A DNA stretch of 20,028 bases from IMG/VR virus record IMGVR_UViG_2551306526_000001; one strand, written 5' to 3'. Below are positions 3,001-6,000 of this stretch, piece by piece. Made by a program: the position numbers. Position 1 is the stretch's first letter. Each line of letters opens with the position of its first letter. The stretch comes from a virus (taxonomy: Duplodnaviria > Heunggongvirae > Uroviricota > Caudoviricetes).

Positions 3001-6000
3001 GCTGGTTAACGCGTAAGGCGCGTCGCCAGGGTAACCGCAATGCGTCGAATGTTTATCAGCTTAACGTTGCGAAGCTTCAGGCAGCGGCATTTTCTCAACT
3101 GTCAGATTCTGACCCGTCAAAATCTGACGCATCAAAATCTGACGCATCAAAATCTGACCCGTCAAAATTTGATGCGTCGAAATCTGGCAAAAAAGCGGGT
3201 TTTCACCCGTCAGAATCTGGCGGGGATCCGTCAGTAAAATCAAAACATGATCCGTCAGATAAAAAACCTTCTCGTCCGGACGCTTCGCAACCGGACACGC
3301 AGACGGCTGAACAGGATTTTTTAACTCGCCATCCTGATGCGGTTGTATTCAGCCCTAAAAAGCGCCAGTGGGGGACGCAGGATGATTTGACCTGCGCACA
3401 GTGGCTCTGGAAAAAAATCATCGCCCTGTACGAGCAGGCTGCCGAATGTGACGGCGAGGTGGTTCGTCCCAAAGAACCGAACTGGACAGCCTGGGCAAAC
3501 GAAATTCGCCTGATGTGTGTACAGGATGGGCGTACACACAAACAAATCTGCGAGATGTACAGCCGTGTCAGCCGCGATCCGTTCTGGTGCCGTAACGTGC
3601 TCAGCCCGTCGAAGCTGCGGGAAAAATGGGATGAGCTTTCCCTGCGCTTATCGCCGTCCGTCAGCACGTACACCGAACAACGCGAGGACCCGTACTTCGA
3701 AGCCAGTTACGACAACGTGGACTACAGCCAGATCCCGGCAGGATTCAGAGGGTGATCATGAGTCTGTTAAATGACGTTCAGAAATTCATTGAAGCCCATC
3801 CGGGGTGTACTTCCGGAGACATTGCGGATGCTTTTGCAGGTTACTCACGGCAGCGCGTTCTGCAGTCTGCAAGCAAGTTACGTCAGAGTGGGCGTGTGGC
3901 TCACCGTTGTGAAGGAGATACACGCAGACATTTCCCGCGCCTGACTGAGAGAGCGCAGGAACCGGAACCACAACCAGTTCGATAAACCAGACCTGTGCGC
4001 AATTTCTATGTCGGCACTAACGATCCACGGGTGATTTTGTGCCTGACCCGCCAGGCTGAAGAACTGGAGTCCAGGGGCTTATACCGTCGTGCTGCAACCG
4101 TGTGGATGGCGGCATTCCGTGAAAGCCACTCCCAGCCAGAACGAAACAATTTTCTGGCACGTCGTGAGCTGTGTTTACGGAAAAGCAGCAAGCGCGCTGT
4201 ATCGAGTGATGAGTGGTATCTGTCAGGGAATTACGTGGGGGCGTAATGACGACGTTAACTCAATGCCAGCAGCAGGTGCTGGATATGCTGATTTCTTATC
4301 AGAAAGAGCGTGGCTTTCCGCCAACCAATCAGGAGGTGGCAACCATGCTGGGATACCGTTCAGTGAATGCAGCGGTAGAGCATCTTCGTGCACTGGAGAA
4401 AAAAGGCGTCATCACGATAAAGCGTGGCGTGGCCCGGGGGATAACGCTTCATACCGCGGTGAAGGACGACGACAGCGAGGCGGTCGGGATTATCCGCGCA
4501 CTGCTTGCCGGTGAGGAAAACGCAAAGCTGCGTGCAACCCACTGGTTACATGAGAGGGGCCTGAAAGTATGAAGCTGATCCTGCCTTTTCCGCCCAGCGT
4601 GAACACGTACTGGCGACACCCCAACAAAGGGGCGTTTGCTGGTAAGAGCCTGATAAGCGCGGCGGGGCGAAAATTCCAGAGCGCAGCGTGCGCAGCAATA
4701 GTTGAGCAGTTACGTCGTCTGCCGAAACCAACGTCGGCACCTGCTTCAGTGGAGATCGTGTTGTTTCCTCCGGATAACCGGATCCGCGATCTGGACAACT
4801 ATAACAAGGCGCTGTTTGACGCCCTGACCCACGCGGGTGTGTGGGAAGACGACAGCCAAGTGAAAAGAATGTTGGTGGAGTGGGGACCGGTTATCCCGGA
4901 AGGGAAGGTCGAGATCACTATCAGTAAGTACGAGAAACCGGCGGGTGCAGCCGCCTGATTAAGAGGAGAAACGAAGTATGAATAATCTGATGGTCATTGA
5001 TGGTATTGAAGTTCGTCGTGATGCTTATGGGCGTTACAGCCTGAACGATCTGCACAGGGCTGCCGGTTCTCTGGATAAGCATAAGCCTGCATTCTGGCTC
5101 CGCAATGAGCAAACTGAACGTTTAATAAGCGAGTTGCAGATTTGCAACTCGGTCAATATAGAGCCAGTTAACGTTATTCGTGCGCGGAAATAACCAGGGG
5201 ACGTATGTCTGCAAAGAACGTGGTGTATGCCTATGCAATGTGGATCAGCCCGTCATTCCATCTGAAGGTGATCCGTACTTTCGACATGGTAACCAGCGCA
5301 CCGGAAAAATTATCCGGACAGGCTGCTGACAAGATGCAGGCTGGTGTGATTCTGCTGGACTTTATGCGCCGGGAATTAAACCTGTCTAACTCTTCAGTGC
5401 TTGGTGCCTGTCAGAAACTCCAGGAGGCTGTTGGTTTACCGAATCTGGCACCGCGCTATGCCATTGATGCTCCTGCTGACGCGCCTGATGGCTCAAGCCG
5501 CCCCACGCTGTCACTGAGTGCACTGCTGAAGCAGTATGGTATCCGCCTGACAGCTAATCAGGCATATCACCAGATGGTGAAGCTGGGGATCGTCGAGCAG
5601 CGCGAACGATACAGCCGTACCGCGATTAACAACATCAAAAAATTCTGGTCGCTGACAGCGAAAGGCTGCATGTTCGGCAAGAATATCACCAGTCCCGCAA
5701 ATCCGCGCGAGACGCAGCCGCATTTCTTCGAATCCCGATTCCCTGAGCTGTTAAAGCTGCTCGATACCGTTCATTGAGGTGACCGTGAGAGCACTACTGA
5801 CCCCTGAAGTTGCCCCGCGTATGGGGATCGTATTGTTCAGGCCAGGTTCAGAGTTGATGCCCCTGTTTATGCAGGGGCGTGTCCTGCTGGAGCCTGAGCC
5901 GGAACGTTATTCATCTTTCGCCAGTGGTGCAGTTCCGGCGGCATCACAACCGCTGGCGGATGATCCTGCCGTTCGGGCCGTGTTCCGCAATGAGGCAGTG

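What the first reader, a model, noticed from the sequence alone, without database searches (positions are those of the whole stretch)
4978..5777. KilA-N domain gene split by frame disruption
The first half of a KilA-N domain (…YGRYSLNDLHRAAG…PAFWLRNEQTERLISEL…) is in frame +1 and stops at 5191-5193. The second half (…VVYAYAMWISPSF…) resumes in frame 0 at 5205. An intermediate GTYVCKE-like segment is readable in the third frame around 5201-5218, suggesting one or two small indels within ~30 bp. Either the gene is a pseudogene or the sequence has local errors.
Basis: seen in the sequence. Interest (0 to 1): 0.4.

Follow-up and report, generated by a model that had tools for sequence, protein, structure and literature searches.

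The report
Frameshifted KilA-N gene in decaying prophage
A phage-derived DNA-binding gene in a broken-down prophage of the poultry pathogen E. coli χ7122 has been knocked out by two extra bases 37 bp apart; it is a genuine but ordinary, very recent pseudogene.

Summary
Window 4978-5777 is one KilA-N domain gene split into a 71-aa ORF (4978-5193) and a 190-aa ORF (5205-5777). Alignment with intact 798-bp homologues places two single-base insertions, C at 5183 and G at 5220. Removing both restores a 265-aa protein identical to E. coli WP_001061404.1, a sequence on record on at least 1000 contigs.

The window is the APEC χ7122 chromosome (HE962388), inside a lambdoid prophage remnant with four large deletions. 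Neither insertion occurs in 2110 matching complete E. coli genomes, 57 phage records, species-representative genomes, or sister copies of the remnant. The first insertion is also absent from IMG/VR and JGI metagenomes.

A published Illumina resequencing of χ7122 at 100x or more lists 35 discrepancies with HE962388. Two lie 1.5 kb upstream in this window and many are 1-bp indels, but none is at the two insertion sites. The lesion is therefore most likely real and not a sequence error.

No natural two-ORF homologues, recoding signal, templating repeat or BstA membership were found. Verdict: a recent, strain-private pseudogene in a decaying prophage. Low interest.

The parts
4978..5777 (+). Whole disrupted KilA-N domain gene (800 bp; the intact form is 798 bp and 265 aa). 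It is the orthologue of WP_001061404.1, phage SfII gp46 and phrog_129.
4963..4968 (+). Native Shine-Dalgarno sequence GAGGAG, 9 nt upstream of ATG 4978.
   Evidence: Sequence. Anti-SD duplex of -9.1 kcal/mol.
4978..5193 (+). N-terminal fragment ORF of 71 aa. It covers KilA-N profile positions 5-58 and ends ...VIRARK* at the premature TAA 5191-5193.
5183..5183 (+). Inserted C (GTG-GCGG becomes GTGCGCGG). This first +1 frameshift equals HE962388 position 272,308.
5186..5218 (+). Stretch between the insertions that encodes the conserved KilA-N core GNNQGTYVCKE. It is readable only in the third frame and is lost from both main ORFs.
5220..5220 (+). Inserted G (GAAC-TGG becomes GAACGTGG). This second +1 frameshift equals HE962388 position 272,345.
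5196..5201 (+). SD-like AGGGGA, 3 nt upstream of ATG 5205. It is also present, out of frame, in intact alleles.
   Evidence: Sequence. Anti-SD duplex of -6.5 kcal/mol. Conserved in the alignment.
5205..5777 (+). C-terminal fragment ORF of 190 aa. It holds the last ~27 residues of KilA-N (profile 79-105) plus the uncharacterised C-terminal ~160 aa. Its ATG is in frame only because of G5220.
4569..4958 (+). Context: upstream rusA (Holliday junction resolvase), intact.
5779..6774 (+). Context: downstream DUF968 / HNH-like gene, intact, followed by antiterminator Q (6777-7157).

Best explanation
This is a genuine, very recent loss-of-function pseudogene private to E. coli APEC χ7122. It derives from a lambdoid nin-region gene lying between rusA and the DUF968 and Q genes. 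The gene encodes a 265-aa protein with an N-terminal KilA-N DNA-binding domain and an uncharacterised C-terminal domain. Two single-base insertions, C5183 and G5220, each shift the frame by +1. The first brings a TAA into frame three codons later (5191-5193). The conserved core of the domain (GGNNQGTYVCKEL) is then encoded in neither remaining ORF, so no product can form a complete KilA-N domain. The gene sits in a defective prophage that has already lost its terminase ATPase, capsid and most tail genes through four microhomology deletions. Sister copies of that remnant are losing further segments, including this gene. Shown: the lesions, their positions, their uniqueness, the intact ancestral allele and the decaying context. 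Inferred: that the lesions are real rather than errors (from a published resequencing table, not raw reads), that the fragments are non-functional, and that relaxed selection rather than selection against the gene explains the loss.
For: Two 1-base insertions are seen against intact genes of phages 569R4, SfII and phiSTEC1575 and of E. coli prophages. Removing them gives a 265-aa ORF that is 100% identical in protein to WP_001061404.1, with one synonymous base difference. That exact protein is on record on at least 1000 contigs. The repaired protein gives one KilA-N match of 92 bits, against 39 and 24 bits for the fragments, and a full-length phrog_129 match at E 8e-129. The window is identical to HE962388.1 at 17,974 of 17,974 compared positions, and HE962388 is χ7122. 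Illumina resequencing of wild-type χ7122 at 100x or more against NZ_HE962388 lists 35 variants. These include 270,803 C>A and 270,824 G>A, which are window positions 3678 and 3699 (mapping verified), and several non-homopolymer 1-bp deletions. Nothing is listed at 272,308 or 272,345. Elsewhere the sequence is clean: there are no other indels in 15.3 kb against L006, and none in 9-12.8 kb against L007, L008 and L010. The prophage is defective, with four large deletions against L004. The KilA-N region is deleted outright in L005, L007, L009, L011 and L013.
Against: I did not see reads; absence from a filtered variant table is indirect evidence. Two independent indels 37 bp apart, with none elsewhere in 15 kb, is unlikely for unrelated events (roughly 2x37/15,345, about 0.5%). 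That pattern would also fit a local artefact or a single complex event. The allele appears in no other public sequence searched. HE962388 does contain errors or stock differences, two of them in this window. Non-function of the fragments is untested.
Confidence: 0.82

Rival explanations
1. The two extra bases are local errors in the deposited HE962388 sequence, for example from one poor read or a consensus error, and the gene is intact in the living strain.
For: The two insertions are tightly clustered and private to this record. The gene is otherwise identical to an intact allele. The record has 35 documented discrepancies with resequencing, including a close pair of SNPs 1.5 kb upstream in this window.
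Against: The same resequencing, at 100x or more with 300-nt Illumina reads, called non-homopolymer 1-bp deletions elsewhere (220,690; 562,833; 780,922; 2,144,564) and SNPs at 270,803 and 270,824. It listed nothing at 272,308 or 272,345, in the wild type or in the pgl integrant. Neither insertion lengthens a homopolymer, which is the dominant error type in that list. No other indels occur in the window against sister copies.
Confidence: 0.1
2. Gene fission: the pair of insertions converts one gene into two expressed cistrons. G5220 places the pre-existing SD-like AGGGGA and ATG 5205 in frame with the C-terminal 185 codons, 11 nt after the new stop codon. The C-terminal domain would then be made by translational coupling, without its KilA-N DNA-binding domain, possibly under selection.
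For: ATG 5205 follows the TAA at 5191-5193 by 11 nt and has an anti-SD duplex of -6.5 kcal/mol, against -9.1 for the native start. With C5183 alone, the nearest native-frame start, the GTG now at 5223, has a far weaker SD match (-0.9 kcal/mol). The C-terminal 185 codons carry no further lesion. The close spacing of the two events is otherwise unexplained.
Against: There is no evidence of expression. No other genome has this arrangement. Sister copies of the remnant delete the whole gene, so there is no sign of selection for the C-terminal part. The SD and ATG exist by chance in every intact allele. The C-terminal region has no known autonomous function.
Confidence: 0.06
3. Programmed recoding: ribosomes make two +1 shifts, or bypass, to produce the full-length protein from the split gene.
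For: None beyond the fact that all three pieces of the protein are readable in successive frames.
Against: It would need two separate +1 events. There is no slippery or stimulatory motif, and local RNA folds no better than shuffled sequence (z = +1.4). Rfam finds nothing at the locus. The split is not conserved in any homologue, whereas programmed frameshifts are conserved.
Confidence: 0.01

Closest known systems
Intact E. coli/Shigella lambdoid prophage KilA-N domain protein (WP_001061404.1; phage SfII gp46 AGQ45536.1; phage vB_EcoS-569R4 URC09495.1; PHROG phrog_129 'transcriptional regulator')
   Same: Same gene at the same position (rusA, KilA-N, DUF968, Q). It is 97-99.6% identical in DNA, and the protein is identical once the two bases are removed.
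   Different: The window copy carries C5183 and G5220, which split it into 71-aa and 190-aa ORFs and remove the conserved core motif from both.
Frameshift pseudogenes in cryptic or defective prophages of E. coli (established knowledge: e14, Rac, DLP12, Qin and similar elements decay by deletion, IS insertion and frameshift)
   Same: The host element has four large deletions. An adjacent IS3-family transposase ORF begins at 19750, after similarity to sister copies ends at 19571. Sister copies carry further deletions.
   Different: The lesion is very young. There is no amino-acid change apart from the frameshifts, and the allele was found in one strain only.
BstA abortive-infection defence proteins (KilA-N-like N-terminus; Owen et al. 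2021, PMC8585504)
   Same: [quoted passage not shown]
   Different: No PADLOC BstA model matches the repaired protein; the only hit is a weak local one to candidate PDC-S22 over the KilA-N core. The genomic position is also different, in the nin region between rusA and Q. It is not a BstA member.
Other disrupted alleles of the same gene in public assemblies (L017/L021 with a -1 shift in a G-run; L023/L025 with an IS3-family insertion)
   Same: The KilA-N half is disrupted and the C-terminal 184-aa ORF is still called.
   Different: The lesions, the N-terminal allele and the boundaries all differ. Most other '184-aa' calls are artefacts of N-runs in metagenome scaffolds.

Membership tests
KilA-N domain (Pfam PF04383) | A significant match to the domain profile over essentially its full length | tested here: met
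   The repaired 265-aa protein matches at residues 7-105, profile 5-105 of 107, with 92.2 bits (gathering score 23.8) and E 2.2e-26.
KilA-N domain (Pfam PF04383) | A complete domain encoded by a single ORF as the sequence stands in the window | tested here: not met
   The 71-aa ORF covers profile 5-58 only (39.2 bits). The 190-aa ORF covers 79-105 only (23.6 bits, just under the 23.8 cut-off). Profile positions 59-78 are in neither.
phrog_129 (phage 'transcriptional regulator', KilA-N type) | A full-length match to the family profile | tested here: met
   The repaired protein matches at residues 1-263 against profile 2-268 of 273, E 8.2e-129.
Pseudogene (frameshifted orthologue of an intact gene) | The reading frame is disrupted relative to intact orthologues that are otherwise near-identical | tested here: met
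   There are two +1 insertions. Intact 798-bp orthologues occur among the 2110 matching complete E. coli genomes, none of which carries either insertion, and the repaired protein equals WP_001061404.1.
Pseudogene (frameshifted orthologue of an intact gene) | The lesion is present in the organism's DNA and is not an artefact of the record | tested here: inconclusive
   Indirect support only. The published Illumina resequencing table of χ7122 at 100x or more lists no variant at 272,308 or 272,345, while listing variants at 270,803 and 270,824 and other 1-bp indels. Raw reads were not available to me.
Pseudogene (frameshifted orthologue of an intact gene) | The gene products have lost function | not testable with these tools
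   This is inferred from loss of the conserved core GGNNQGTYVCKEL from both ORFs. No expression or activity data are available.
Programmed ribosomal frameshift / recoded gene | The split is conserved across homologues, with a slippery site or stimulatory structure | tested here: not met
   No homologue shares the split. Local RNA is not more stable than shuffles (z = +1.4). Rfam finds nothing at the locus.
BstA defence family | A match to the BstA family model, including its C-terminal domain | tested here: not met
   The PADLOC scan gives only a weak local hit to PDC-S22 at residues 67-104 (E 4.9e-06) and no BstA model.

The most novel reading that the evidence does not exclude
The two insertions are not independent decay. 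They would be either a single complex event or a selected two-step that turns one gene into a translationally coupled pair. That would free the uncharacterised C-terminal domain (190-aa ORF, newly in-frame SD and ATG at 5196-5207) from its KilA-N DNA-binding domain, making this a caught-in-the-act example of gene fission in a domesticated prophage remnant.
Probability: 0.06. Interest if true: 0.3.

Novelty: already known. Interest (0 to 1): 0.1.

Why it matters
It matters little beyond annotation. It shows that the split at HE962388 272,103-272,902 should be annotated as one frameshifted KilA-N pseudogene, not two hypothetical genes. It also shows that the lesion is probably real and not an error to be corrected. 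As a small case study, it dates one inactivation step precisely: there are no other changes from the intact allele, and the prophage remnant's sister copies show many alternative decay paths. Only if the C-terminal ORF proved to be expressed would it become a modest example of gene fission.

Tried and rejected
1. I looked for the insertion-bearing allele elsewhere. Complete E. coli genomes gave a best identity of 98.4%, meaning both gaps are present in every match. Phage records had none. A pattern for the first insertion, with or without the second, found nothing in GTDB species representatives, IMG/VR or JGI metagenomes. A pattern for the second insertion alone found nothing in GTDB representatives. 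Exact protein look-ups of both fragments, and of versions with other start codons, were mostly negative.

2. The 184-aa and 179-aa C-terminal ORFs on record elsewhere looked like natural two-ORF homologues or a lesion hot spot. I rejected this. Six of the ten loci have N-runs (scaffold gaps) in the N-terminal part, two have an IS insertion, and two have a -1 shift in a G-run of a different allele. None has the window's boundaries.

3. Templated or quasi-palindrome mutagenesis: no direct or inverted copy of 7 nt or more of either mutated junction lies within 400 bp.

4. RNA structure or recoding signal: the local fold is no better than shuffles, and Rfam is silent at the locus.

5. BstA or other defence membership: no match.

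6. A solved-structure relative by sequence: none (best E 0.57). NCBIfam: no family.

7. The original genome paper (Dziva et al. 2013, PMC3584874) is not held, so the sequencing chemistry of the reference is not documented here. NZ_HE962388 is not in the annotated E. coli collection, so I could not read the record's own annotation. The gene table for GCA_000307205.1 simply has no product between rusA and the DUF968 gene.

8. I ran no further search on the C-terminal domain, because they would not change the verdict.

Full report

Yes. The + strand carries ORF 4978..5193 (71 aa, MNNLMVIDGIEVRRDAYGRYSLNDLHRAAGSLDKHKPAFWLRNEQTERLISEL...VIRARK*) and ORF 5205..5777 (190 aa, MSAKNVVYAYAMWISPSFHL...). 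A third-frame ORF, 5180..5329, reads ...GNNQGTYVCKE....

Pfam KilA-N (PF04383) matches the first ORF at profile positions 5-58 (E 6.6e-10). It matches the second at positions 79-105 (E 4.7e-05), and no other family matches either. Two halves of one domain, in order, on adjacent ORFs in different frames, is not a chance pattern.

**2. Where exactly is the lesion?**

I aligned the window with intact 798-bp genes from phages vB_EcoS-569R4 and SfII, the 810-bp gene of phiSTEC1575-Stx2k, and an E. coli prophage. Exactly two differences in length appear:
- an extra C at 5183 (GTG-GCGG becomes GTGCGCGG);
- an extra G at 5220 (GAAC-TGG becomes GAACGTGG), 37 bases downstream.

Deleting both bases gives a 798-bp ORF. 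Its 265-aa product is 100% identical to WP_001061404.1 of E. coli S1-KEN-03-A, with one synonymous base difference. That exact protein is on record on at least 1000 contigs. The repaired protein gives a single KilA-N match (residues 7-105, 92 bits) and a full-length match to phrog_129, 'transcriptional regulator' (E 8e-129).

Consequences, read directly from the sequence:
- C5183 brings TAA 5191-5193 into frame three codons later.
- With G5220 alone, the frame would instead run to a stop after residue 116.
- The most conserved part of the domain, GGNNQGTYVCKEL, is encoded by neither of the two main ORFs.

**3. What is the context?**

The gene lies in the nin-like region of a lambdoid prophage. 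The order is a LexA-like DNA-binding gene, rusA (4569-4958), KilA-N, a DUF968/HNH-like gene (5779-6774) and antiterminator Q (6777-7157). The same order occurs in SfII, 569R4 and many E. coli prophages.

Against an intact relative (L004, NZ_AP027764.1) the window's prophage has four large deletions. Their junctions lie near 12160, 14190, 14485 and 15888-16014. They remove part of the large terminase gene, the rest of the portal gene, the capsid genes and most tail genes. The element is a defective remnant.

One junction creates an in-frame tail-T/GpJ fusion ORF (14229-16181). That ORF is found verbatim in at least 24 contigs from other assemblies, so it marks the same remnant elsewhere. Those sister copies carry further, different deletions. 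The KilA-N region is gone altogether in L005, L007, L009, L011 and L013, and only L006 keeps an intact 265-aa gene.

**4. Real mutation or sequence error?**

- **The window is otherwise clean.** Against L006 the two insertions are the only indels in 15.3 kb. Against L007, L008 and L010 there are no indels and only about 3 substitutions in 9-12.8 kb. General low sequence quality is excluded.
- **The allele is unique.** None of the 2110 complete E. coli genomes that match a 126-base probe has either insertion; the best identity, 98.4%, corresponds to both gaps. No phage record has them. A pattern for the first insertion (with or without the second) found nothing in species-representative genomes, IMG/VR or JGI metagenomes, and a pattern for the second insertion found nothing in species-representative genomes.
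- **The source was identified.** The truncated terminase product occurs on a single record, HE962388.1 (GCA_000307205.1). The window is identical to that record at 17,974 of 17,974 positions. HE962388 is the chromosome of avian pathogenic E. coli χ7122. No product is listed there between rusA and the DUF968 gene.
- **There is an independent resequencing.** Mauri et al. 2021 (PMC8487346) resequenced wild-type χ7122 and a derivative with 300-nt Illumina reads at 100x or more. They mapped the wild-type reads to NZ_HE962388 and the derivative's reads to the same reference with the pgl locus added in silico. Additional file 2 gives all 35 discrepancies for the wild type.
- **The coordinate mapping checks out.** Two listed discrepancies, 270,803 C>A (Gln294Lys) and 270,824 G>A, fall in my window at 3678 and 3699. 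There the window has the reference bases, sister copy L007 has the alternative bases, and codon 294 of ORF 2799-3755 is indeed Gln. This fixes window position = record position - 267,125. It also shows that this prophage was mappable and callable.
- **The insertion sites are not in the list.** The list includes non-homopolymer 1-bp deletions elsewhere, so such errors were detectable. Nothing is listed at 272,308 (C5183) or 272,345 (G5220), in either the wild type or the derivative.

I conclude that the insertions are very probably real in the strain. The caveat is that this rests on absence from a filtered table. I did not inspect reads.

**5. Why two insertions 37 bp apart?**

This is not explained. 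If two indels fell at random in the 15.3 kb compared, a spacing of 37 bp or less has a probability of about 0.5%. That suggests one complex event, or a second event connected to the first. I tested three ideas:
- **Templating.** I found no direct or inverted repeat of 7 nt or more within 400 bp that could template either junction.
- **Structure.** The local RNA folds no better than shuffled sequence (z = +1.4).
- **A new in-frame start.** G5220 places a pre-existing SD-like AGGGGA and ATG 5205 in frame with the C-terminal 185 codons. That ATG lies 11 nt after the new stop. Its anti-SD duplex is -6.5 kcal/mol, against -9.1 for the native start.

The last point permits, but does not show, expression of the C-terminal part. 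I keep it as a low-probability gene-fission reading.

**6. Are there natural two-ORF homologues?**

No. A 184-aa C-terminal ORF starting at the GTG equivalent to window 5223 is on record on other contigs. Inspection of ten such loci showed the following:
- six have runs of N (scaffold gaps) in the N-terminal part;
- two have an IS3-family insertion;
- two have a -1 frameshift in a G-run of a different N-terminal allele.

None shares the window's insertions or boundaries. Programmed recoding is rejected for lack of conservation and of any signal.

**7. Comparison with known families.**

The gene is a member of the KilA-N domain family and of phrog_129. The KilA-N domain is described as a poorly characterised domain of phages and eukaryotic DNA viruses that carries a DNA-binding helix-turn-helix motif (Iyer et al. 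2002 and Medina et al. 2019, as cited in PMC8585504). Its C-terminal ~160 residues match no Pfam, NCBIfam or PDB entry.

It is not a BstA defence protein. PADLOC gives only a weak local hit to candidate PDC-S22 over the KilA-N core.

What it is like: the many frameshifted genes of cryptic prophages. That comparison rests on established knowledge.

**8. Verdict.**

- This is an ordinary, very recent, strain-private inactivation in a decaying prophage, so novelty is nil and interest is low (0.1).
- The only unexplained detail is the close pairing of the two insertions.

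Noticed in passing
window 12158-12162, 14185-14191, 14480-14488, 15888-16014: Four large deletions (0.9, 5.6, 5.6 and 5.3 kb) relative to an intact relative (L004). The alignment blocks on either side of the first three junctions overlap by 5-9 bases, which suggests microhomology. They leave a defective prophage lacking the terminase ATPase part, the capsid genes and most tail genes.
   Followed up: partly
window 14229-16181 (+): A deletion junction creates an in-frame 650-aa fusion of tail assembly protein T with tip attachment protein J. The identical protein is on record in at least 24 contigs from other assemblies, so the remnant is widespread and stable in that form.
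   Followed up: partly
L005-L014 versus window: Sister copies of the same remnant carry different additional deletions: window 4776 to 10565 in L007 and L009; 1742 to 13458 in L011 and L013; 13004 to 14119 in L012; 9498 to 13664 in L014. This is a natural series of ongoing prophage decay.
   Followed up: partly
window 3678 and 3699 (ORF 2799-3755, codons 294 and 301): The window has C and G here. Sister copy L007 and the 2021 Illumina resequencing of χ7122 both have A and A (HE962388 270,803 and 270,824). These are probably two errors, or stock differences, in the deposited sequence, 21 bp apart.
   Followed up: yes
window 12924, 12994, 17298: Three substitutions private to χ7122 relative to all sister copies. 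Two lie 70 bp apart in the truncated terminase gene. They are not listed as discrepancies in the resequencing, so they are presumably real.
   Followed up: no
window 16869-17858 (-) and 17871-19073 (-): A DUF2971 protein matches the PADLOC candidate defence family PDC-S31 (E 9e-21), next to a DUF4236 protein, just beyond the tail-fibre assembly gene. This may be a defence cargo pair. The DUF2971 gene is called as 262 aa in some sister copies and 329 aa in others.
   Followed up: no
window 19572-20028: Similarity to all sister copies ends at 19571. An IS3-family transposase ORF (HTH_Tnp_1) begins at 19750 and is followed in HE962388 by an rve-domain ORF. It looks like an IS insertion upstream of a DUF6602 gene, seen only in χ7122 among the loci examined.
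   Followed up: partly
window 3144-3158, 10597-10603, 10937: Relative to L004 there is an extra 15-bp iteron-like repeat (GCATCAAAATCTGAC) inside the replication-protein gene. There is also an extra 7-bp tandem copy (TATGTAG) at the end of the lysis genes, and a T-run one base shorter after a GC-rich stem.
   Followed up: no
window 16524-16722 (+): The only Rfam match in the window is IS009 (RF02111), at 225 bits. It lies inside the tail-fibre assembly gene region.
   Followed up: no
window 5285-5931 versus L006: Twenty-one of the 27 substitutions between the window and L006 fall in this 650-bp patch, spanning the KilA-N 3' half and the DUF968 5' end. This suggests a recombination patch between prophage alleles.
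   Followed up: no
L017 (GCA_052953355.1) 1370-3555: In this assembly several adjacent genes are split (Dam into 106 and 111 aa, LexA-like into 39 and 38 aa, KilA-N into 98 and 184 aa). This looks like an assembly with many indel errors, so its KilA-N frameshift should not be counted as biological. The same G-run frameshift is nevertheless present in Logan contig L021.
   Followed up: partly
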